Shown piece after piece: positions 1-8,335 of a stretch of DNA of 8,335 bases. The translations under genes were made by a program, and so were the position numbers. Origin of the DNA: Patescibacteria group bacterium (GTDB taxonomy: Bacteria > Patescibacteriota > Patescibacteriia > Magasanikbacterales > GWA2-37-8); the NCBI GenBank assembly GCA_004321885.1, contig SCQK01000023.1:1-8335 (forward strand), read 5' to 3'. The number at the start of each line of letters is the position of its first letter. Position 1 is the first letter of the stretch. The notes below the pieces were generated by a model. That model saw only the letters and a program-made list of their open reading frames with translations. It searched no databases and was not told the origin of the DNA.

Positions 1-593
1 TAGGCTGGGAGGATCAGATAGGAAGGGTTCAGGACGATTCCATCCCCCCGGTTGAACCCATAGTAGGCTGGCAAAAGCAAGGTTCGGTTGTCCCAGGTGA
101 TTGCAAGGTGTTTTCTGATCCCCTCAACAATTTTGAGTCCCTCTGTCTTGTAGCCGATATCATCCCATTTGGCAGACGCCTTGAGGAGCGCATAGGCGAT
201 CAGCAGATCGCCGTCTGTTGCGTTGTTGTAGTCGATAATCCCCCAAAGGTCATTTGGCCTTTTGCCCCAGGCCCACACAAAGAGGTTGTCTTGCCTTGAC
301 TGTAGATTATTCTTTGTCCATTGCCAGATCTTGTGAAATGTGGCCCTGTCGTCATACAAGACGCTACTAAGCATCCCATAACCCTGGCCTTCCGAGTGGC
401 TGATGTGCATCTGTCGCTTATCGGTAACTCGACCATCAGCTTGAATGAACGTAGCCTTATACTGCTCCCAAAGCTTTTCAGCCTGAGCATTCGGCACTGG
501 CACCGATTGTGCCTGAGTATATGCAGGAGAGGCGAGCACCGCTAAAAGCACTGTGAGCAACCATATGTTAACCCTCAGAATCAGTCGGTGCAT
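1..593 (-). CDS. bcsZ: Endo-1,4-beta-D-glucanase, glycoside hydrolase family 8 (cellulose-synthase-associated BcsZ). N-terminal ~197 aa only; the gene continues past the window's left edge.
   Basis: The ORF track does not list this because there is no in-window stop. My minus-strand translation from the ATG at 591-593 has no stop codon down to position 1. The translation is MHRLILRVNIWLLTVLLAVLASPAYTQAQSVPVPNAQAEKLWEQYKATFIQADGRVTDKRQMHISHSEGQGYGMLSSVLYDD...NATDGDLLIAYALLKA...ILNPSYLILPA. It has a signal-peptide-like N-terminus. The GH8 catalytic signature (I)SHSEGQGYGM and the NATDGDLLIA block match E. coli BcsZ (WEQYKQQFISSDGRVID...ISHSEGQGYGM...NATDGDLLIALAL) as I recall it. A strong SD, AAGGAGG (revcomp of 601-607), sits 7 nt upstream of the ATG. 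The start overlaps the 3' end of bcsB by 26 nt. Confidence 0.82.
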   Translation of the reverse strand, partial: MHRLILRVNIWLLTVLLAVLASPAYTQAQSVPVPNAQAEKLWEQYKATFIQADGRVTDKRQMHISHSEGQGYGMLSSVLYDDRATFHKIWQWTKNNLQSRQDNLFVWAWGKRPNDLWGIIDYNNATDGDLLIAYALLKASAKWDDIGYKTEGLKIVEGIRKHLAITWDNRTLLLPAYYGFNRGDGIVLNPSYLILPA

Positions 594-2751
594 CCTTAAA
601 CCTCCTTGCCCTGTATCGCCTGAGGAGGTAGAAGAGGACCAGCCCCATGGCGATTATGACGACAGCCACCGCGATATAATAGAGCCACGGATAAAAAAAC
701 AGGTACCTGTCGATCAGGGAGACCTTCCCGGTCTTTCCTGAAAAATACCGTTTGCCAACCTGTAATGACGAAACGGTATAGTCCGGCGGCGAGAGATCGA
801 TCAGGACGAGGCCGCCTTCGGACTTCGATTGCACCCCAGGTTCGAGAAGCGCCCTGCTCAAAGTCTGTAGATCTTCAGAAGTTGCAGCCGTTGCGAGTAG
901 AACCGTGCGGCCCTCTGTGAATGGCGAGAGAAACTCCATCAGTACACCTTTACCAGGTTTGAACTCGCTGATCTGTTGGCTATAGGCCAGGGTGACCTCG
1001 TCGTTCCAGCTCCTGATGACCGGATGGGGCACGATAGTCTCTTTGGTCAGTGTCAGCGGGGCGGCCTTTTTATACGTCTCTGGGATGGTGTTGACTTCGC
1101 CTACAACGATCAGTTCGCCATCGAATCGTTTGGGATCTGTATACGTGACCTTTACCTCAATGAGGGGATAGCCGTTTTTCTGCGTCATCACGCCGATGAG
1201 GTTCAAAGCGGAATTGATCGTTGCTAAATTGTTATTCGTCAGGTAGATCATCGACTCGTGGCCATCCGGCCAGCGGGTAAATGGGAACCCGCTGAGCATC
1301 AGCAGCTCGATCCTTGGCAGATCCGTCAAATGTGGCATCGGCGGGAACAAGAGCGTTGAGTTTTCAAAGATGGTAATAAAGAGATTTGCGTCCTGTATGA
1401 ACTCGCAGGCTTTACCACTGGAGGGTGTCAAGACCGGCTCGAACCGGAAGATATTATCGCCCGGTTTGAACATGTAGGTCGGGACCTTGATCTTGTACCC
1501 TTCGATGGTGTCCCCCTTGCTATTGTCGAGATGGATGCCCCTCACCAGTTGCCCATTGAGGGAGATGTTCAGAGCCGAATCGGTGCGGAGGGCTGCACCA
1601 TAGGCAAAATACAGAGAGAGGTCAGCATAGATATTGGGTCTGACGAGAAAATCGGGTGGCAGACGGAAGGCTATCTCTAGCGATGATGGGTTAAGCCCTT
1701 TGAAGGTGTGAGATCGAACGTCCAGGTTTTTGAAAGTGTACTGTTTGTCCGGGGTGATGACGAGCCTCCCGCTGTACATCGTGATGTCTGGAAGGGTAAA
1801 TCCTGTGACCAGCATCTCGTCAGCGTTGGGAAGCGAAGTGGACATGATGGCAAACGTCTCGGCAGCTAGTTTCAGGTGGTCTGCGTTGAGACCTGAAACC
1901 ACGATAAGGGCATGGTTTGGGTCGACTCGTCCCTCGCCGCCTGGCAGGTGCAAGATCTTAAGATACGGTCCCTGAATCTCTGGTGGGCCGATACCCTTTG
2001 ACCTCAGGAAGCCTTGAACAAAGTCCCGGCTGCCTAGCAGGAAGTTGTCGGACCCTGGCTTTACCGTATCCGATACCGTGAAGGAGACCGGCCTGTAGTC
2101 AAACCGCCTTGCAACGCCTGATGCCAGGATGGCAGCGATCGTGAGCAGCTCGGAGTTGGTGTCTTTCAGGACGATATTGACCGCCCCCTGCGGGCTGATC
2201 TTCGGGTCGAACAACAGCCCGTTGATTGCAGGGAGTTTTAACGGGATGGGTTTGAGTGTGTAATCTACTTCGAAGAAGGCCTGATCCAACTTCAGCGTGG
2301 TCCAGAGGTCAGGGGCGCAGGGATTTTCACACTCGAGCGTATAGTGCTGTGAGACCTGAAAGCCAATCTTGTTATAACCAGGCTCCAATAAAAATGGCGG
2401 GATCGACAACCTGACCGACCCTTCTGGCGCTGACGGATTCAGGTTGACCTGCGCGACTGGATAGTCGTTGACCTTTAGCGCGAGCCTAGACTTGTTAGCC
2501 AGGAGGCCCGTCGAGTTGACGTAGTTAAAGCTCAGTACGGCCTTTTCAATCCTCCACCGCTCCGGTATGGGGATCATGAGGTTGTGACTCGCGTTGCTAC
2601 ACTTCAGATCGACGGTCTTCGCGGCGGTGAGTTTGTACAGGGGGATCCTGAGAACCTCGCCAGACACCTCCCCAGCCCAAGACAGGAGGAGCAAAAGTAA
2701 GGTAGAAGTCCACAACCTCATAAGCCGTTTCGTCATCCTCTGTCGCATCAT
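568..2751 (-). CDS. bcsB: Cellulose synthase periplasmic subunit BcsB (cyclic-di-GMP-binding protein family), 727 aa. The true start may be an internal Met at 2736 or 2721.
   Basis: 727-aa ORF in the track. It has an N-terminal signal peptide (MMRQRMTKRLMRLWTSTLLLLLLSWAGEVSGEV). A large domain with no further hydrophobic segments follows. A single C-terminal transmembrane anchor closes it (YLFFYPWLYYIAVAVVIIAMGLVLFYLLRRYRARRF) with a short charged tail. This is the characteristic BcsB architecture. Its position right after bcsA and before bcsZ fits. I find no convincing SD for any of the three candidate Met starts, so the start is uncertain. Confidence 0.8.
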   Translation of the reverse strand: MMRQRMTKRLMRLWTSTLLLLLLSWAGEVSGEVLRIPLYKLTAAKTVDLKCSNASHNLMIPIPERWRIEKAVLSFNYVNSTGLLANKSRLALKVNDYPVAQVNLNPSAPEGSVRLSIPPFLLEPGYNKIGFQVSQHYTLECENPCAPDLWTTLKLDQAFFEVDYTLKPIPLKLPAINGLLFDPKISPQGAVNIVLKDTNSELLTIAAILASGVARRFDYRPVSFTVSDTVKPGSDNFLLGSRDFVQGFLRSKGIGPPEIQGPYLKILHLPGGEGRVDPNHALIVVSGLNADHLKLAAETFAIMSTSLPNADEMLVTGFTLPDITMYSGRLVITPDKQYTFKNLDVRSHTFKGLNPSSLEIAFRLPPDFLVRPNIYADLSLYFAYGAALRTDSALNISLNGQLVRGIHLDNSKGDTIEGYKIKVPTYMFKPGDNIFRFEPVLTPSSGKACEFIQDANLFITIFENSTLLFPPMPHLTDLPRIELLMLSGFPFTRWPDGHESMIYLTNNNLATINSALNLIGVMTQKNGYPLIEVKVTYTDPKRFDGELIVVGEVNTIPETYKKAAPLTLTKETIVPHPVIRSWNDEVTLAYSQQISEFKPGKGVLMEFLSPFTEGRTVLLATAATSEDLQTLSRALLEPGVQSKSEGGLVLIDLSPPDYTVSSLQVGKRYFSGKTGKVSLIDRYLFFYPWLYYIAVAVVIIAMGLVLFYLLRRYRARRFKDAPTDSEG

Positions 2752-2864: not shown

Positions 2865-2894
2865 TGCATCTAACCGGTACTGGTAACAGTCGAA

Positions 2895-2905
2895 GTGAGC
2901 CTCAC
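2895..2905. repeat. 11-bp perfect palindrome GTGAG-C-CTCAC, 10 nt downstream of the DHH-gene stop codon.
   Basis: Read directly from the sequence. It is too short and its loop too small for a stable RNA hairpin, so it is more consistent with a protein-binding dyad. It may also be chance. Confidence 0.4.
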
Positions 2906-2915
2906 AAGAGATTCT

Positions 2916-3923
2916 TCAATTCCCCCAGATTGAGCATGGACAGGTCTTACCGCACATGTGACAGTTGAAGTATCCTAGTAAGAGACTCTTCAAGAAACTG
3001 TGTTGCAATTCACCGATGAGCTTTCCTAAGACGTCATCGGCCTGATCGCCTCTGGCTTGGCAGGTGCCGGCATTGGCATGTCCTCCCCCTCCGTATTGTT
3101 CCAGAATCGTTCCGATATCCCTTCCGTATGACCTGTCAAGAATAGATTTACCTACCGCAAAAACAATCTTATCGCTATCTGAATCGGCAATAACCTGGAG
3201 GGAGACACTACACTCTGGAAACAGCGCATGGATCATAAACCGATTGCCAGGGTACATCACCTGTTCTTTTCGCATATCCGTGACGACCAGATTGAAATGG
3301 ACTGTAGCGCACCGGAGTAGCTGGGCCTTATACTGTTCTATACACGAAAAGTATAGATTGAGCCTCTCCTCTACGTCTGGCAGGTTTAGCACATCCCAGA
3401 TCGTATGGTCTCTACAATAGTCGACCAGTCTCATAATGAGTTCAGGGGTGGAGGTCGGAAATCGTTGAAATATTTCCAGGCCGGTTCGGTGATCGATGAG
3501 GTGATTCAGGAGCATCCAGCCGGTTGGATACAGGATATCATCGATGCCGATGTTCCCGCTAAAACCCTTGTCGACGGCCTTCAGCATATCAGGCGAGACG
3601 CGTCTAAAACGTTCTCGTCCATAATAGTTGTAAATCACCCGTGACGTTGAAGGCATCCTCTGATCGACAACGAGGTTCCTGGTCTTGCCTTTGATCTCAG
3701 ATCTGCTTGGGTAATGATCAAAGGCTAAGTGAGCAGTCTCTCTGTAAGGAAGTCCGGCCGTGATGTCGGAAGCCGCGATTGCTACCTTGCCACTCTCAAT
3801 GTCTTTTGGATGCGCAAAGGCAATCCGGTCGATGAGCGCCATCTCCTTGAGCAGGACGCCGCATGCGAGCCCATCGAAGTCGCGCTTGGTCACGAGTCTA
3901 TACTGTTGCTTGTCGTTCATCAC
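2916..3923 (-). CDS. DHH/DHHA1-family phosphoesterase, NrnB-like (COG2404-type: oligoribonuclease/nanoRNase or cyclic-nucleotide phosphodiesterase), 335 aa, with a Cys-rich C-terminal tail.
   Basis: The ORF starts GTG(3921-3923)-ATG(3918-3920) and overlaps the bcsA stop codon (TGA at 3920-3922). DHH motif I is KRDFDGLACGVLL; compare B. subtilis NrnB ..NDLDGVGCGIV.. as I recall it. Motif II is AIAASDIT. Motif III is LAFDHYPS, i.e. DHY instead of the canonical DHH. The DHHA1 signature is YGGGGHANAGTCQ (the GGGH-x2-A-x-G motif). The C-terminus ends ..GYFNCHMCGKTCPCSIWGN (C-H-x2-C-x3-C-x-C). Family assignment comes from motifs only. Substrate is unknown. Confidence 0.68.
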   Translation of the reverse strand: MMNDKQQYRLVTKRDFDGLACGVLLKEMALIDRIAFAHPKDIESGKVAIAASDITAGLPYRETAHLAFDHYPSRSEIKGKTRNLVVDQRMPSTSRVIYNYYGRERFRRVSPDMLKAVDKGFSGNIGIDDILYPTGWMLLNHLIDHRTGLEIFQRFPTSTPELIMRLVDYCRDHTIWDVLNLPDVEERLNLYFSCIEQYKAQLLRCATVHFNLVVTDMRKEQVMYPGNRFMIHALFPECSVSLQVIADSDSDKIVFAVGKSILDRSYGRDIGTILEQYGGGGHANAGTCQARGDQADDVLGKLIGELQHSFLKSLLLGYFNCHMCGKTCPCSIWGN

Positions 3924-6196
3924 GCCGCTTGCTCAAGCTTCCGCCTTCGGATGATGAGTTTGGCATAGGTTACTGGTACATGAAGAAGCCGCTTATAGGC
4001 AAGCAGGCTCACCGTGAAGCCCTTTCCCGCCATCTTGACAATAAACCAGAGCATCTTAAAGAAACTGACCTTCCTTGTTCGCTTGCTCCAGTAGTCCATC
4101 CATCGTTGACTGTCGCCGTATACAAATCGTGTCGCAGTCAGCCTCGCCTGTTCATCAGGGAGGATGAACTCGGTGCCGCATAGAAACATCTCTCCTCTTT
4201 TCACAAATCGCTGGATGCGGGCCTCTAAGCCGTATCGTCCGCCGTAGCTATCCCTGGCTTCCATAATGATGTGTTCCCGAGATGTTAAGGGAAACGGGAT
4301 GTGGAACAAGAGGCCAATCCCTGAAAGCGAGATGTCCTGGATACTGGCCTCTACCGTTATTTTCAGTCGTGGGAAAAAGACCGACAATTTGCCCTTGGCC
4401 CACATCCGGTGGTGGCGTCTTATCTGTCGTCTGTCAAGGAAGGCCCCTAAACCTGCCATGGACAGCAGCAGGTTATACAGGCACCAGACGAGGGCGATGA
4501 ATGTCGTACCCCGGTAAAGGGGGTATTTGAACCACTCAACGATAGCCGTCGGGATCGCGATGGTCAGCACAGTACACATGATGAGGAATGGGAGCGCGAG
4601 CCTGCTGAGATCGTCGCTCTCCAGAGTTTTGCCTTTAGGCGTGACCTTGAACGATGGCTTCCTTGGGTTGACCATGGCTGAAAAAACAACCGGCAGCAGG
4701 AACAGCGATTGGATACTCTCATGCAGATCGGACAGGAGCGGCCACCGGTACTTTCCATAAAAGAAATTTATCAAGATCATTGAGCACAGTAGATGTGGGA
4801 CGGCGTAGGCGAGCACCTGTGGGACAGAGGCATAATAGACATGCAGGCCAAGGAACAAAAAGGCTGCCGGCGCCAGAAGGAAGATAACCCTGGGGATGCC
4901 AAAGAACCAGTATAGGCCGTTGTTAAAATAGCACAGGCGCTGATAGAGCTTCAGCCCCTTTTCAAAGAGGGGATTCCTTAAGATCATGATCTGCGTCATG
5001 CCCTGGGCCCATCGGCTTCTCTGGAGAATCAGGTCATCGAAGGTCTCTGGAGAGAGACCGCAGACCATGGATCGAGCAATGTAGGCACTGTTGTAACCTC
5101 TTCGATGTAGCGCGTAGGCGGTTTCGCAATCCTCGGTAACAGTCTCTCCTGAAAAGCCACCGACCTCTTCCAGATACCTCCTTCTCAGGATGCCGGCCGA
5201 GCCGCAAAAAAAGCTGGCGTTCCAAAGGTCAAGACCGAGATGGCTGGCGCGGTAAAACAGCTCGCTCTCACTGGGCGCATCACGCAACGCCTCTACATTC
5301 TTTTCGACAGGGCTTGGATTGATGAAGAAATGTGGTGTCTGGACCATTGCAAGTTTTGAGTCTTTTATGAACCACCCGACGGTGTTTTTGAGGATGTCCC
5401 TCGCAGGGACATGGTCACAGTCTAGGATTAAAACGAGGTCTGAGGTCGTATGACGAATTGCGTGATTGATATTGCCGGCCTTGGCCCTCACATTCCTTTC
5501 ACGCGTGATGTAACTCACGCCGAGCGCTCTTGCCATCCGTCTTAAGGCATAGTGTCGTTCCCAGGCTGCCTGGGCAGTCTCGGGATCGTTCCGCTTCGCC
5601 ACCGTGGCGCCATCATCCAGGACATGGACCGTTAGTCGGTCTTTTGAATAGTCTATATTGAGCGCTGCTATAGCTGTCGTCTCGATGATGTCGAGCGGTT
5701 CGTTGTAGGTGGGGATGAAGACGTCAACAGAGGGGTACTTGGAGGTCTCTTCCGGCAATGGCATAATCTTCCTCTCCTGAGGCCATACGTTCACAAAGAT
5801 ATTCAGGAGATGGAGGACGATGGCATAGACCTCAGCCGCATAGATGAGGATCGTTCCACTGAAATCTAGCAGGCGTTCATAGATTAATGTCTCAGAGGTG
5901 CGCCATATCAGGTAGCGAATGTCCACAAAGACCGAGAGAAGGATAAACAGGAGCCTTAACGGCGGTCTTGTGAAGCGCGTGATCCTCTCGCAGATCAGTA
6001 ACGCAAGAACCGATCCCCATCCGACGATGAACTGCCCCGGCAAGGCTAGATAAAATTGCGCTAAGTGAAAAAAAAGATAGACCAGGATCGACACTCCCGC
6101 ATAGGTGATGCCCTTGGTCAATCGCTCCTGATCGGTCAGGAGATCGGTTATGAATGCGCGAAGCGTCTGTTTCGTGAGGGCGTAGGGGCGCGGCAT
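3920..6196 (-). CDS. bcsA: Cellulose synthase catalytic subunit BcsA (GT2 processive beta-glucan synthase with C-terminal PilZ c-di-GMP receptor domain), 758 aa.
   Basis: N-terminal TM helices are followed by a GT2 domain with all hallmark motifs: VLDDGATVA (DDG), ILDCDHVP (DCD), FFCGSAGILRR, TEDCETA (TED), QRSRWAQG (QxxRW). More TM helices follow, then a PilZ domain with RRHHR (RxxxR) and DISLSGIGL (DxSxxG). An in-frame stop lies 15 codons upstream of the ATG at 6194-6196, so this is the only available start. No clear SD precedes it. Confidence 0.93.
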   Translation of the reverse strand: MPRPYALTKQTLRAFITDLLTDQERLTKGITYAGVSILVYLFFHLAQFYLALPGQFIVGWGSVLALLICERITRFTRPPLRLLFILLSVFVDIRYLIWRTSETLIYERLLDFSGTILIYAAEVYAIVLHLLNIFVNVWPQERKIMPLPEETSKYPSVDVFIPTYNEPLDIIETTAIAALNIDYSKDRLTVHVLDDGATVAKRNDPETAQAAWERHYALRRMARALGVSYITRERNVRAKAGNINHAIRHTTSDLVLILDCDHVPARDILKNTVGWFIKDSKLAMVQTPHFFINPSPVEKNVEALRDAPSESELFYRASHLGLDLWNASFFCGSAGILRRRYLEEVGGFSGETVTEDCETAYALHRRGYNSAYIARSMVCGLSPETFDDLILQRSRWAQGMTQIMILRNPLFEKGLKLYQRLCYFNNGLYWFFGIPRVIFLLAPAAFLFLGLHVYYASVPQVLAYAVPHLLCSMILINFFYGKYRWPLLSDLHESIQSLFLLPVVFSAMVNPRKPSFKVTPKGKTLESDDLSRLALPFLIMCTVLTIAIPTAIVEWFKYPLYRGTTFIALVWCLYNLLLSMAGLGAFLDRRQIRRHHRMWAKGKLSVFFPRLKITVEASIQDISLSGIGLLFHIPFPLTSREHIIMEARDSYGGRYGLEARIQRFVKRGEMFLCGTEFILPDEQARLTATRFVYGDSQRWMDYWSKRTRKVSFFKMLWFIVKMAGKGFTVSLLAYKRLLHVPVTYAKLIIRRRKLEQAA

Positions 6197-6356: not shown

Positions 6357-7190
6357 CTATTTGGATGGTTCAGATGGGGGGGTGATGGTGTGTTGTTTCG
6401 TTCTGGTCTCCTCGGCCCTCTCGGGTTTCGTGCCTATTCCTTTAAAGAGAACGAAGAGGAGGATCAAGATAGGGATCAGGACGAGGAGGATTTTCATCAC
6501 TGGTGACGCACCCGCCTTCTCTTGGGTCTGGACGGGTGCTTTATCGGTCAGGTCACGTTCGACCTCTTTTGGGTTCCAAAACGCCTTATAGACATTCACG
6601 GGCTCTTTTTTGCCTTTGAGGCTGGTCGTCTTGAGGAACCGGCAGTAGACCTCTGACTTGTCGGCCAGAGCATTATAAGTCTCTTCAGAACAACAGATTT
6701 CGCCAGGACTTGCGGACGATTCAAAGCGTGAAGCGGTATTGACTACATCGCCGAATATATCGTCCTTCTCGATGATGCATTTGCCGGTATGCAGGCCGAT
6801 ACGCATCAGGATAGGGGTCTTCAGTTGTTTGGTCAGGTTCAATTCATCGATGCCCTTTTGTATCTGAACGGCCGCTCTCAGACCGTCCTGCGCATGCTCA
6901 AAATGGGATAGAGTCCCGTCACCAATCGTCTTGACCAACACCCCGTTATGACGTTTGATGATGGGGAAGACGATATCGTTATGGTGTTTGATCAGCATGC
7001 GGGCCGAGAGATCGCCTTCAGCCTCTGCAATGGAGGTTGAGCCTTTCAGGTCAGTGAACATGACGGTGAGTATCTTGGTGAACTTCTCCTGAAAAAGGGT
7101 CTCCATCTGTTCCCTTTGTTCAAGATACTGCTCGATGTCTGAGCGGTCCTGGTCGTCCCCTTGTCTCGTTTCGGCATCATCTGGTGACAT
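6357..7190 (-). CDS. Class III nucleotidyl cyclase (CHD domain), predicted adenylyl cyclase. It has an N-terminal acidic/coiled-coil segment, a central catalytic domain, and a single C-terminal transmembrane helix (tail-anchored).
   Basis: The track ORF starts at TTG 7196. I prefer the ATG at 7188-7190 because a GAGGAGG SD (revcomp of 7200-7206) lies 9 nt upstream. CHD motifs: VMFTDLKGST (metal-binding Asp), LVKTIGDG (second Asp; Lys at the purine-specifying position, as in KTIGD of adenylyl cyclases versus ETIGD of guanylyl cyclases), RIGLHTG, DDIFGDVVNTASR (Asp at the second specificity position, cf. DIWG in mammalian AC C2). No GGDEF or EAL motif is present. The C-terminal hydrophobic stretch MKILLVLIPILILLFVLF is followed by the Lys/Arg-rich tail KGIGTKPERAEETRTK. 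Confidence 0.85.
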   Translation of the reverse strand: MSPDDAETRQGDDQDRSDIEQYLEQREQMETLFQEKFTKILTVMFTDLKGSTSIAEAEGDLSARMLIKHHNDIVFPIIKRHNGVLVKTIGDGTLSHFEHAQDGLRAAVQIQKGIDELNLTKQLKTPILMRIGLHTGKCIIEKDDIFGDVVNTASRFESSASPGEICCSEETYNALADKSEVYCRFLKTTSLKGKKEPVNVYKAFWNPKEVERDLTDKAPVQTQEKAGASPVMKILLVLIPILILLFVLFKGIGTKPERAEETRTKQHTITPPSEPSK

Positions 7191-7211
7191 CGTCAAGACC
7201 CTCCTCGTAGA

Positions 7212-7410: not shown

Positions 7411-7743
7411 TCACTCCGGTCTCTTCCCTTCCCGAGACGAAGCAGCCGGGAATGCCTTCACCGAAAGATCTTGGCCGATGTGGCACTGCAAGCAAACATA
7501 ATTGCGCGTCGGATGCGGGACGATCGGAGCCCCGGCGAACCCTTTTTCGTGGCAATCCAGGCAGGCTCCTTTCCTCCTTTCCACATCGTGGGGGATCAAA
7601 GGCGGGGCGCCTTTATAGGCACGAGGCAGTTTCTTGCTGCCTTGTTTGGGAGCACCCTGTTCAGAAAGCGCGCTCCCGCTCAGAGTAACGAGTAAGCACA
7701 AGAGAAAAATACCTCCAAAAGAATATTTCTTGAGTGACTTCAT
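7411..7743 (-). CDS. napB: Periplasmic nitrate reductase diheme cytochrome c subunit NapB, 110 aa.
   Basis: Signal peptide MKSLKKYSFGGIFLLCLLVTLSGSALS. NapB hallmark APPLIPH (E. coli QPPMIPH). Two CxxCH heme-binding motifs, CLDCH and CLQCH (E. coli has CLQCH twice). SD AGGA (revcomp of 7749-7752) sits 5 nt upstream of the ATG and overlaps the napA stop. It lies 9 nt downstream of napA. Confidence 0.85.
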   Translation of the reverse strand: MKSLKKYSFGGIFLLCLLVTLSGSALSEQGAPKQGSKKLPRAYKGAPPLIPHDVERRKGACLDCHEKGFAGAPIVPHPTRNYVCLQCHIGQDLSVKAFPAASSREGKRPE

Positions 7744-7752
7744 GATTATCCT

Positions 7753-8335
7753 TTACACTTTCTCGATCCGAACTGCGCATTTCTTAAAGTCTGGCTGCTT
7801 GGAAATAGGATCGTAGGCATCAAGCGTCACCAAATTGATGAGGACATTTTCGTCGAAGAACGGTACAAAGACCACGCCTTTCGGGACCGTATTTCTGCCG
7901 CCTATTTGAGCCTTTGTGACGATCTCCCCGCGGCGCGATTGGACACGAACCGAATCCCCAGTCTTGATTCCCAAGGCGCCTGCGTCCTCGGAGCTGATCC
8001 ACACAGGAGCAAAGGGGACGGCACGGTGCAACTCAAGGACTCTCCTCGTAATGGTCCCTGTATGCCAGTGCTCAAGGACGCGACCTGTCGTGAGCCACAA
8101 AGGATATTGCTTATCGGGCTGCTCGGCTGGCGGCTCGTAGGGCCGTGCCCAGATCACGGCACGACCATCAGGCTGGCCGTAAAAACGGACGCCTTCACCC
8201 TGCTTGACGTACGGGTCGAAGCCCTCCCGGTACCGCCACCGTGTTTCTTTGCCCTCGACAACCGGCCAGCGCAGCCCGCCACGGACCTTCGCGTACACAT
8301 CATAGGGCGCGAGATCTTTTCCCGACCCCTCGCCG
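7753..8335 (-). CDS. napA: Periplasmic nitrate reductase catalytic (molybdopterin) subunit NapA, C-terminal ~193 aa. The gene start lies beyond the window's right edge.
   Basis: The reading frame stays open from 8335 down to TAA at 7753-7755. The track's Met at 8298 is an internal GTG, not the start. The C-terminal sequence ..[66 protein letters not shown] closely parallels the E. coli NapA C-terminus (..[65 protein letters not shown]) as I recall it. Confidence 0.9.

What the first reader, a model, noticed from the sequence alone, without database searches (positions are those of the whole stretch)
2916..3720. Non-canonical DHH motif III (DHY) and a Cys-rich C-terminal knuckle (CHMCGKTCPC) in the embedded phosphoesterase
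By my alignment to NrnB, motif III reads FDHY rather than DHH, replacing the second His with Tyr. Second-His variants exist in active DHH enzymes, for example DHR in Drosophila prune, a cAMP phosphodiesterase. Such a change could shift substrate preference or metal use. The last ~20 residues carry C-H-x2-C-x3-C-x-C, which resembles a small metal-binding or zinc-knuckle element that NrnA/NrnB proteins do not typically have. It could mediate docking to BcsA or BcsB, or redox sensing.
Basis: inference. Interest (0 to 1): 0.5.

Follow-up and report, generated by a model that had tools for sequence, protein, structure and literature searches.

The report
Dead pGpG hydrolase inside cellulose operon
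The gene between the cellulose synthase genes bcsA and bcsB is a relative of the pGpG-degrading enzyme PggH that has lost most of its metal-binding catalytic residues but kept its nucleotide-binding ones, so it is probably a regulatory subunit rather than an enzyme, and its cysteine-rich tail is a recent accident of one lineage.

Summary
The ORF 2916..3923 (-) is not NrnB-like. It is a close relative of Vibrio cholerae PggH, the pGpG-specific DHH/DHHA1 phosphodiesterase (7d62; E 5.5e-84; model TM 0.95). DHY does sit at motif III, but it is one of three coordinated losses among PggH's five Mn2+ ligands: N55 to G57, H69 to Y71, D121 to F121. The pGpG-contacting residues R146, N227, R228 and H282 are kept.

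The same pattern defines a clade of 86 of the 120 best homologs. That clade also carries a conserved aromatic C-terminal tail (KNLFxGYFNYY). In 11 distinct contexts its members lie between bcsA and bcsB, usually downstream of a class III cyclase gene. In two anammox-type loci they lie beside a bcs cluster. All 79 genome loci with the full ligand set have no bcsA or bcsB within about 6 kb.

The Cys-rich CHMCGKTCPCSIWGN occurs only in this lineage. It arose from a tandem duplication of the 3' end, loss of the stop codon and an out-of-frame read-through. AlphaFold gives it pLDDT below 50.

Best reading: a catalytically inactive, guanine-dinucleotide-binding accessory subunit of the cellulose synthase. 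I found no description of it in the papers I could search.

The parts
2916..3923 (-). ORF X, 335 aa with a GTG start (334 aa from the ATG at 3920). A PggH-family DHH/DHHA1 protein with a degenerate metal site.
   Evidence: 7d62, E 5.5e-84; AF2 pLDDT 91.9; Foldseek 7d62_A, TM 0.95 by target, rmsd 1.6. The start overlaps the bcsA stop (GTGATGA).
3873..3881 (-). Motif I, D15-F16-D17, equivalent to PggH D13 and D15. Retained.
3753..3755 (-). G57 in place of the Mn2+ ligand N55 of PggH.
   Evidence: Gly in 98% of clade B and Asn in 100% of clade A.
3711..3719 (-). Motif III, D69-H70-Y71. Y71 replaces the Mn2+ ligand H69. H70 (PggH H68) is kept here but is Y, N, R or S in 42% of clade B.
3561..3563 (-). 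F121 in place of the essential Mn2+ ligand D121 of PggH (motif IV).
   Evidence: Never Asp in the 87 clade-B sequences; F, Y, V or I in 75 of them.
3486..3488 (-). R146, retained. Contacts the 3'-guanosine in PggH.
   Evidence: 98% Arg in clade B.
3240..3245 (-). N227-R228, retained. Recognise the 3'-guanine in PggH.
   Evidence: N 94%, R or K 97%.
3078..3092 (-). GGGGH, the DHHA1 nucleotide-binding motif. H282 recognises the 5'-guanine in PggH.
   Evidence: H 95%.
2964..3008 (-). Clade-specific C-terminal tail L306..N320 (LQHSFLKSLLLGYFN; clade consensus LxYGxxKNLFxGYFN). It is absent from canonical PggH.
   Evidence: every clade-B sequence, no clade-A sequence; G317 and Y318 invariant; short helix, pLDDT about 80.
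2916..2963 (-). Lineage-specific Cys-rich extension CHMCGKTCPCSIWGN plus the stop codon.
   Evidence: pLDDT below 50.
2869..2952 (-). Decayed second copy of the tail-coding DNA (ancestral ...GELKNLFLGYFNYYQYR*). It overlaps the end of the ORF and runs into the X-bcsB spacer.
   Evidence: In one search the orthologue's tail DNA aligns at 35 of 41 positions, score 47 against shuffles of 14.2 +/- 2.1.
3920..6196 (-). bcsA, the cellulose synthase catalytic subunit. Its PilZ domain carries RxxxR (589) and DxSxxG (621).
   Evidence: (TIGR03030, E 7.5e-241).
568..2751 (-). bcsB.
   Evidence: PF03170, E 3e-110.
6357..7196 (-). Class III nucleotidyl cyclase with a C-terminal hydrophobic anchor. It is the conserved first gene of the cluster.
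   Evidence: Also upstream of bcsA in the related loci.
3..572 (-). bcsZ (GH8 endoglucanase), N-terminal part; it runs off the window.
   Evidence: PF01270, E 6.5e-46.

Best explanation
ORF X is a cytosolic paralogue of the pGpG-specific phosphodiesterase PggH that has been turned into a non-catalytic accessory subunit of the BcsAB cellulose synthase.

Shown:
- It has the PggH fold.
- Three of PggH's five Mn2+ ligands are replaced by Gly, Tyr and Phe.
- The residues that hold pGpG in PggH are retained.
- It belongs to a distinct, conserved clade that is embedded in or adjacent to bcs clusters, and its start overlaps the bcsA stop.

Inferred:
- It no longer hydrolyses pGpG.
- It still binds a guanine dinucleotide: pGpG, the product of EAL phosphodiesterases, or possibly c-di-GMP.
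- It passes that occupancy to the c-di-GMP-gated BcsA by protein contact, or buffers the ligand locally. The conserved aromatic tail KNLFxGYFNYY is the likely docking or membrane-interface element.

The Cys-rich end is not part of this design. In this lineage an approximately 90-nt tandem duplication of the 3' end was followed by Tyr-to-Cys/His transitions, loss of the stop codon (TAG to AAG) and a 9-codon out-of-frame read into the second copy.
For: Family and fold:
- Sequence match to PggH 7d62, E 5.5e-84 over residues 6-305.
- AF2 model pLDDT 91.9. Foldseek gives 7d62 at TM 0.95 and rmsd 1.6; NrnA, GdpP and RecJ score below TM 0.55.

Lost catalysis:
- PggH's ligands are D15, N55, H68, H69 and D121. 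Mutations at H68 and D121, and at the second-shell D13 and D67, abolish activity.
- The query has G57, Y71 and F121 at the positions of N55, H69 and D121.
- In 87 clade-B sequences, position 121 is never Asp, G57 is at 98%, Y or F at 71 is 90%, and H70 is only 58%.

Retained binding:
- R146 98%, N227 94%, R or K at 228 97%, H282 95%.
- PggH binds pGpG with Kd 14 nM in 1 mM EDTA, and D121A keeps that affinity. The metal site is therefore not needed for binding.

A separate clade:
- An NJ tree built without the signature columns gives an exact clade A | clade B split.
- At 50% clustering, clade B stands apart at 570 bits against 382 or less for the canonical proteins.

Genomic context:
- X lies between bcsA and bcsB in Nitrospirae, Elusimicrobia, Trichlorobacter and unassigned loci.
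- It lies beside a bcs cluster in anammox-type loci.
- 79 of 79 canonical-ligand loci have no BcsA or BcsB hit within about 6 kb.
- The X start overlaps the bcsA stop, and no terminator was found before bcsB.
- The BcsA PilZ motifs are intact.

Tail origin.
Against: - No biochemistry exists for any clade-B member.
- The query still has D15, D17, D69 and H70, which might hold one metal ion in a new geometry.
- A sub-lineage (P0005, P0006, P0018, P0024, P0044) has also lost N227 and/or R228 and part of GGGH, yet P0005 still sits between bcsA and bcsB. Nucleotide binding is therefore not universally required, and a purely structural role is possible.
- The ligand identity is inferred only by homology to PggH. 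PggH's own pose for pGpG is a docking model, not a co-crystal.
- Contact with BcsA or BcsB is inferred from gene order alone.
- I could not read model coordinates, so I could not check how Y71 and F121 fill the former metal site.
Confidence: 0.6

Rival explanations
1. X is still an active phosphodiesterase whose altered motif III (DHY) changes its metal or substrate preference, acting as a local pGpG or cyclic-nucleotide degrading enzyme at the synthase.
For: D15, D17, D69 and H70 remain in the query. The GGGH motif and the substrate residues are intact. From my own knowledge, some DHH enzymes tolerate variants of the second His. An apparently intact cyclase gene sits in the same operon, so a partner phosphodiesterase would make sense.
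Against: Three of five direct ligands are replaced by residues that cannot coordinate metal in the same way (Gly and Phe; Tyr at best weakly). In PggH, mutations at D121 and H68 each abolish activity. Across the clade the remaining His is itself replaced by Y, N, R or S in 42% of members, and position 121 is free to vary among F, Y, V and I (entropy 2.3 bits). That is not how a catalytic residue behaves.
Confidence: 0.12
2. X is a purely structural adaptor, an inactive DHH-fold scaffold like Cdc45, that helps assemble or stabilise BcsA-BcsB and binds no nucleotide.
For: The sub-lineage P0005, P0006, P0018, P0024 and P0044 has lost N227 and/or R228 and part of GGGH, yet P0005 keeps the bcsA-X-bcsB position. 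CDC45 and RecJ-Cdc45 appear among the distant structural matches. The clade has a conserved clade-specific tail.
Against: R146, N227, R or K at 228, and H282 are at 94-98% in clade B. Their entropy is far below the protein's mean (0 to 0.7 bits against 1.39), while the former metal ligands drift. This implies selection on the nucleotide pocket in most lineages.
Confidence: 0.2
3. In this particular lineage the Cys-rich tail has become a functional zinc-binding or redox-sensing element.
For: C321, H322, C324, C328 and C330 lie within 10 residues. The identical tail is present in a second assembly from another sequencing run. Three Tyr codons became Cys, His and Cys.
Against: It is absent from all orthologues. 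It is made up of a mutated YYRYR*, a lost stop codon and an out-of-frame read of duplicated DNA. pLDDT is below 50. The two carriers differ at only 11 of 3746 bases, so there has been no time for selection to be tested. The preceding conserved tail has itself drifted at near-invariant positions (Y308H, N313S).
Confidence: 0.06
4. X is a decaying pseudogene left over from a PggH gene captured by the operon.
For: Loss of catalytic residues. The 3' end has been rearranged.
Against: Intact ORFs of 314-335 aa occur across at least four phyla, with mean pairwise identity of 55% and 25 invariant columns. The AF2 model is confident. The gene keeps a fixed operon position and overlaps the bcsA stop.
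Confidence: 0.02

Closest known systems
PggH (VCA0593) of Vibrio cholerae, the pGpG-specific DHH/DHHA1 phosphodiesterase; PDB 7d62; PMC8861645
   Same: - 45% identity over about 300 residues.
[quoted passage not shown]
- Same motif I aspartates, D67 and H68 equivalents, and GGGH.
- Same pGpG-contacting R146, N227, R228 and H282.
   Different: - N55, H69 and D121 are replaced by G, Y and F, so the Mn2+ site is dismantled.
- R11 is replaced by K.
- There is an extra C-terminal tail of about 20 residues.
- The gene is embedded in a bcs operon, whereas 79 canonical homologs examined are not bcs-linked.
- It is predicted not to hydrolyse pGpG.
BcsE (GIL domain; degenerate REC and GGDEF modules) of enterobacterial type II Bcs systems
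   Same: Same logic (from my own knowledge and the review PMC8892547): a cytosolic, operon-encoded accessory subunit built from a degenerate fold of a c-di-GMP-metabolising enzyme. It binds the dinucleotide and boosts or regulates BcsA.
   Different: The folds are unrelated and there is no sequence similarity; no Pfam family other than a weak DHHA1 hit was found. BcsE occurs with BcsF, BcsG, BcsR and BcsQ. Here the partners are a class III cyclase, bcsZ, bcsC and bcsG.
Degenerate EAL, HD-GYP and GGDEF receptors (for example FimX, LapD, PelD)
   Same: Enzymes of c-di-GMP turnover that lost catalysis but kept ligand binding and became receptors. [quoted passage not shown]
   Different: Those derive from the first step of c-di-GMP degradation or from its synthesis. 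X derives from the second-step, pGpG-specific enzyme, for which I found no described degenerate receptor form.
Cdc45 and RecJ-like inactive DHH-family scaffolds
   Same: A DHH/DHHA1 superfamily fold reused without catalysis as a structural subunit of a larger machine. They are distant Foldseek matches.
   Different: The relationship is very distant (TM 0.45-0.52, about 10-14% identity). They belong to eukaryotic and archaeal replication, and have no nucleotide-pocket conservation comparable to that of X.
   Same: Same superfamily. The GGGH motif is shared. One database source labels some homologs 'nanoRNase/pAp phosphatase'.
   Different: Fold match is only TM 0.3-0.46. There is no significant sequence hit to any solved NrnA or NrnB chain. 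No Pfam DHH hit was found, and the DHHA1 hit is below threshold.

Membership tests
PggH family (pGpG-specific DHH/DHHA1 phosphodiesterases) | Full-length sequence homology to PggH | tested here: met
   phmmer against PDB: 7d62_A, E 5.5e-84, residues 6-305 aligned to 18-319.
PggH family (pGpG-specific DHH/DHHA1 phosphodiesterases) | [quoted passage not shown] | tested here: met
   AF2 pLDDT 91.9 with a long helix at 182-205. Foldseek 7d62_A: TM 0.95 by target, rmsd 1.6 over 301 columns.
PggH family (pGpG-specific DHH/DHHA1 phosphodiesterases) | Complete Mn2+ ligand set D15, N55, H68, H69, D121 | tested here: not met
   The query has D17, G57, H70, Y71 and F121, so only 2 of 5 are kept. The same holds across clade B.
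PggH family (pGpG-specific DHH/DHHA1 phosphodiesterases) | pGpG-contacting residues R146, N227, R228 and H282 of GGGH | tested here: met
   All four are present in the query and at 94-98% in clade B. R11 is Lys.
PggH family (pGpG-specific DHH/DHHA1 phosphodiesterases) | Mn2+-dependent hydrolysis of pGpG to 2 GMP | not testable with these tools
   Needs purified protein. Predicted absent, from the loss of D121 and H69.
NrnA/NrnB nanoRNases (COG0618, COG2404) | Canonical DHH motifs I-IV, a Pfam DHH (PF01368) match and a DHHA1 match above threshold | tested here: not met
   Pfam gives only DHHA1 at 17.7 bits, below the 25.9 cut-off, and no DHH hit at E up to 1. NCBIfam gives no relevant family.
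NrnA/NrnB nanoRNases (COG0618, COG2404) | Structural similarity to NrnA-type dimers with a flexible linker | tested here: not met
   NrnA (5j21, 5ipp, 8iu7) matches at TM 0.37-0.46 and rmsd 10-12.
Zinc knuckle or other small Cys-rich metal-binding module | Cys and His ligands conserved in orthologues | tested here: not met
   The tail is present only in the query and in P0001/L168 (99.7% identical DNA). The other 85 clade-B sequences end in GYFN(YY..).
Zinc knuckle or other small Cys-rich metal-binding module | Confidently predicted compact fold around the ligands | tested here: not met
   Residues 321-335 have pLDDT below 50 and no secondary structure. No Pfam hit.
Zinc knuckle or other small Cys-rich metal-binding module | Stoichiometric metal binding | not testable with these tools
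   Needs ICP-MS on purified protein.
Bcs accessory subunit (operon-encoded partner of BcsAB) | Conserved position within bcs clusters across taxa | tested here: met
   bcsA-X-bcsB in L001-L004, L006, L007, L106, L112, L117, L131, L134, L146, L166 and L167. Adjacent to a bcs cluster in L005 and L165. Control: 0 of 79 canonical loci are bcs-linked.
Bcs accessory subunit (operon-encoded partner of BcsAB) | Physical interaction with BcsA or BcsB and an effect on cellulose production | not testable with these tools
   Needs pull-down, two-hybrid or cryo-EM experiments and a deletion phenotype.
Bcs accessory subunit (operon-encoded partner of BcsAB) | Identity with an already named Bcs protein (BcsE GIL domain, BcsQ, BcsR and so on) | tested here: not met
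   No Pfam or NCBIfam hit to any Bcs accessory family. The Bcs review PMC8892547 has no mention of DHH, pGpG or cyclase. Romling & Galperin 2015 could not be read.

The most novel reading that the evidence does not exclude
X is a dedicated receptor for the linear dinucleotide pGpG, built into the cellulose synthase complex. The breakdown product of c-di-GMP would then act as a second signal at BcsA, for example by reporting local EAL phosphodiesterase activity and shutting down or sustaining synthesis. The membrane-anchored adenylate-cyclase-like protein encoded just upstream would add a third nucleotide input. This would be the first enzyme-derived pGpG receptor and a new class of Bcs regulatory subunit.
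Probability: 0.25. Interest if true: 0.85.

Novelty: new variant of a known kind. Interest (0 to 1): 0.62.

Why it matters
Whether pGpG is only a waste product or a signal with its own receptors is an open question. [quoted passage not shown]

A conserved PggH paralogue that has lost its metal site, kept its pGpG pocket and sits between bcsA and bcsB gives a concrete candidate that is easy to purify. It also comes with an obvious output to measure: cellulose synthesis.

It adds an apparently undescribed component, together with a co-conserved class III cyclase, to the bcs operons of Nitrospirota, Elusimicrobiota, Desulfuromonadota and anammox Planctomycetota. These lineages lie outside the well-studied proteobacterial models.

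It also corrects database labels. These proteins are named 'exopolyphosphatase' or 'nanoRNase/pAp phosphatase', which implies an activity they very probably lack.

Tried and rejected
- NrnB/NrnA as the reference family: rejected. There is no significant PDB sequence hit and TM is below 0.5.
- Exact look-up of the window's protein in the assembly collection: not on record. The 334-aa version P0001 was found.
- Genome-collection scan with the clade-B profile. I used the canonical loci as a negative control.
- Degenerate DNA pattern for [KE]NxxxGYFNYY in metagenomes: 78 matches, of which 6 were real X genes, all bcsA-X-bcsB.
- Sequencing or assembly artefact as the cause of the Cys tail: rejected. 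An independent run (SRR8426592) has the identical 3' end. The evolutionary frameshift and duplication explanation was kept.
- c-di-GMP riboswitch or any other Rfam element in the window: none at E up to 1.
- Terminator or promoter between X and bcsB: none.
- Identity of the DUF6271 gene that precedes X in the anammox-type loci: no informative hit.
- Literature searches for a DHH or PggH-like bcs component: nothing found. Romling & Galperin 2015 is not held.
- A fused BcsA+X structure prediction was considered but not run.
Full report
**What is in the window.** All genes lie on the minus strand:
- the end of napA and napB (8298..7411);
- a class III nucleotidyl cyclase with a C-terminal hydrophobic anchor (7196..6357);
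- bcsA (6196..3920; TIGR03030, E 7.5e-241);
- the ORF in question, here called X (3923..2916, 335 aa);
- bcsB (2751..568; PF03170, E 3e-110);
- the start of a GH8 bcsZ (572..3).

The X start overlaps the bcsA stop in the string GTGATGA. No terminator-like site lies between X and bcsB. BcsA carries the PilZ motifs RxxxR and DxSxxG, so this synthase is expected to be gated by c-di-GMP.

**Checking the observation.** The residues F68-D69-H70-Y71 and the terminal CHMCGKTCPCSIWGN are in the sequence at the stated place. The spacing is C-H-x-C-x3-C-x-C.

The reference family was wrong, however. The only significant solved relative is PggH of Vibrio cholerae (7d62, E 5.5e-84). An AlphaFold model built on 73 homologs (pLDDT 91.9) superposes on 7d62 at TM 0.95 and rmsd 1.6. 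NrnA, GdpP, DhhP and RecJ reach only TM 0.3-0.5. PggH is the pGpG-specific DHH/DHHA1 phosphodiesterase (PMC8861645).

**The active site.**
- In PggH the single Mn2+ is held by D15, N55, H68, H69 and D121, with D13 and D67 in the second shell. Mutations at H68, D121, D13 and D67 abolish activity.
- In the nearly gap-free alignment, DHY falls exactly on D67-H68-H69.
- Two more ligands are gone: N55 is G57 and D121 is F121. Only 2 of the 5 direct ligands survive.
- The residues that PggH uses to hold pGpG are all present: R146, N227 and R228 for the 3'-guanosine, and H282 of GGGH for the 5'-guanine.
- PggH binds pGpG with Kd 14 nM in 1 mM EDTA, and D121A keeps that affinity. Losing the metal site should therefore end catalysis but not binding.

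**This is a clade property, not a quirk of one sequence.** Among the 120 best database homologs, 34 carry the full PggH ligand set (signature RDDNDHHDRNRH, about 310 aa, ending ...ITADG). I call these clade A. The other 86, plus the query, show the degenerate pattern; I call these clade B.

In clade B:

| Position (query numbering) | Role in PggH | State in clade B |
|---|---|---|
| 57 | Mn2+ ligand N55 | Gly 98% |
| 71 | Mn2+ ligand H69 | Tyr or Phe 90% |
| 121 | Mn2+ ligand D121 | never Asp; F, Y, V or I in 75 of 87 |
| 70 | Mn2+ ligand H68 | His only 58% (Tyr 21%, Asn 16%) |
| 146 | 3'-guanosine contact | Arg 98% |
| 227 | 3'-guanine contact | Asn 94% |
| 228 | 3'-guanine contact | Arg or Lys 97% |
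| 282 | 5'-guanine contact | His 95% |

Column entropies say the same thing. The former ligands at 70 and 121 drift (1.6 and 2.3 bits), while the nucleotide-site residues are nearly fixed (0 to 0.7 bits, against a protein mean of 1.39).

A neighbour-joining tree built without the signature columns still gives an exact A | B split. In a profile search of 1.8 billion representatives, clade B stands alone at 570 bits or more, followed by a drop to 382 bits for canonical proteins.

**The tail.** Every clade-B protein, and no clade-A protein, has an extra C-terminal segment with the consensus LxYGxxKNLFxGYFNYY. It is modelled as a short helix after the last DHHA1 helix at pLDDT about 80, both in the query and in the orthologue P0002.

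The Cys-rich part is different in kind. It is found only in the query and in a contig from another sequencing run that is 99.7% identical over 3.7 kb. Its pLDDT is below 50. The DNA shows how it arose:
- Directly after, and overlapping, the present stop lies a decayed second copy of the tail-coding sequence.
- An orthologue's ...KNLFLGYFNYYRYR* DNA aligns to window 2915..2874 at 35 of 41 positions. The score is 47 against 14.2 +/- 2.1 for shuffles. The window copy has one inserted base and an in-frame TGA.
- In the first copy, the ancestral YY(Q/R)YR* has become CHMCGK by point changes: TAT to TGT, TAC to CAC, TAC to TGC, and the stop TAG to AAG.
- Translation then runs nine codons out of frame into the second copy (TCPCSIWGN*).
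- The first copy has also drifted at two near-invariant tail positions (Y308H, N313S).

So the knuckle is a recent by-product of a tandem duplication and a stop loss. A new function in this one lineage cannot be excluded, but nothing supports it.

**Genomic context.** X lies between bcsA and bcsB in the following places:
- Nitrospirae MAGs (L001, L002, L007, L134, L146);
- a 367-kb JGI contig (L003);
- an Elusimicrobia MAG (L004);
- Trichlorobacter ammonificans (L006);
- several further metagenome contigs (L106, L112, L117, L131, L166, L167).

The usual order is cyclase - bcsA - X - bcsB - bcsZ - TPR/BcsC - bcsG.

In two anammox-type contigs, X follows a DUF6271 gene and lies next to a bcs cluster. 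In L165 the divergent bcsA-B-Z-C cluster is about 3 kb away. In L005 a bcsA-like gene at the edge of the locus is about 8 kb away.

As a control, none of the 79 genome loci that carry a canonical-ligand homolog has a BcsA or BcsB match within about 6 kb. Ligand loss, the tail and bcs linkage therefore go together.

**Mechanism.**
- Shown: the PggH fold, the dismantled metal site, the conserved nucleotide pocket, the conserved operon position and the start-stop overlap with bcsA.
- Inferred: X does not hydrolyse pGpG. It binds pGpG, or possibly c-di-GMP, and acts on the c-di-GMP-gated BcsA either as a sensor of local c-di-GMP turnover or as a local ligand buffer. The aromatic tail is the likely contact or membrane-interface element. 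The aromatic replacements at 70, 71 and 121 could also provide new base-stacking surfaces; this is speculation.

The main caveat is a sub-lineage (P0005, P0006, P0018, P0024, P0044) that has also lost N227 and/or R228 and part of GGGH. P0005 nevertheless still sits between bcsA and bcsB. This keeps a purely structural, Cdc45-like role alive as a rival.

An active enzyme with a re-wired metal site is unlikely, but only biochemistry can exclude it.

**Comparison with what is known.** X is a structural member of the PggH family but fails its defining catalytic feature. In logic it resembles BcsE and the degenerate EAL and GGDEF receptors, which are enzymes of c-di-GMP metabolism recycled as ligand-binding regulators. 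It is unrelated to them in fold.

I found no mention of a DHH or PggH-like bcs component, or of the co-conserved cyclase, in the Bcs review PMC8892547, in a 2025 survey of bcs clusters, or in full-text searches. The 2015 Romling & Galperin catalogue could not be read, so prior naming cannot be fully excluded.

The PggH paper states that the family is highly conserved only among Vibrio. The present searches show canonical homologs in many phyla.

**Verdict.** The DHY observation is right, but it understates what is there: a coordinated loss of the metal site in a bcs-specific clade. The zinc-knuckle idea is not supported. The finding is best classed as a new variant of a known kind, with moderate to high interest because it offers a testable candidate pGpG or c-di-GMP receptor built into a cellulose synthase operon.

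Noticed in passing
window 6357..7196 (-); also L001 4880-5695, L003 4832-5653, L004 4887-5711, L166 161-994, L167 4718-5527: A class III nucleotidyl cyclase (PF00211) of about 270-280 aa with a C-terminal hydrophobic anchor is the conserved first gene of these bcs clusters. D49, K89, D93, D146, N153 and R157 are present in the window protein. By my recollection of the mammalian adenylate cyclase residues, that pattern looks like an active, adenine-specific cyclase. D49, K89, D93, D146 and R157 are kept in 10 of 11 related loci; N153 was not checked there. The Trichlorobacter homolog is highly diverged and has no Pfam hit. A cAMP-type cyclase, rather than a GGDEF protein, next to a c-di-GMP-gated synthase is unexplained.
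   Followed up: partly
P0005, P0006, P0018, P0024, P0044; L166 3470-4513: A sub-lineage of clade B (339-347 aa) has also replaced the guanine-binding N227 (by Tyr) and in three members R228 (by Trp), and has partly degraded GGGH (for example GWGGH, GGRGD). P0005 is still the only X gene between bcsA and bcsB.
   Followed up: partly
L005 6797-8957; L165 8565-10999: In anammox-type Planctomycetes contigs, the X homolog (short tail ending GYF, GYFN or GYFH; N at position 70, Y at 121) is not between bcsA and bcsB. It follows a DUF6271 gene, overlapping it in L005. In L165 it lies about 3 kb from a divergent bcsA-B-Z-C cluster; in L005 a bcsA-like gene at the locus edge is about 8 kb away. The DUF6271 protein gave no informative PDB or Pfam match.
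   Followed up: partly
P0121 (631 aa): A tandem fusion of two degenerate PggH-like domains. Motif I reads DLN, motif III reads NYY, the N55 position is Gly, and there is no GYFNYY tail. This looks like a second, independent kind of inactivated PggH. Its genomic context was not examined.
   Followed up: no
P0123-P0127, P0156 (593-726 aa): PggH domains fused to an N-terminal domain of roughly 290-400 residues. P0123, the only one whose sequence I read, keeps N55 and D121, though its motif III reads DHHL rather than DHHH. The N-terminal domain was not identified.
   Followed up: no
L008-L086: Homologs with the complete PggH ligand and substrate signature occur widely, in Cyanobacteria, Oxalobacteraceae, Magnetococcales, Rhodospirillales, Pelosinus and others. 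The PggH paper describes the protein as highly conserved only among Vibrio.
   Followed up: partly
window 7411..7743 (-) and 7753..8298 (-): A NapB-like dihaem cytochrome c (two CxxCH motifs) and the C-terminal molybdopterin-binding domain of a NapA-type nitrate reductase lie upstream of the bcs cluster. They suggest a nitrate-respiring host. Related Nitrospirae loci instead have thiamine genes and an HD protein in that position.
   Followed up: no
window 3..572 (-): The start of a GH8 endoglucanase gene (bcsZ) overlaps the end of bcsB and runs off the window. Related loci continue with a TPR/BcsC gene and bcsG, which implies a phosphoethanolamine-cellulose type of cluster without bcsE or bcsF.
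   Followed up: partly
L002 6387-7994 compared with L001 5724-7994: In the NCBI Nitrospirae MAG (GCA_001803605.1) bcsA is called as only 535 aa, against 756 aa in the near-identical ENA contig. The cause may be a frameshift, an assembly problem or a gene-calling difference at the 5' end.
   Followed up: no
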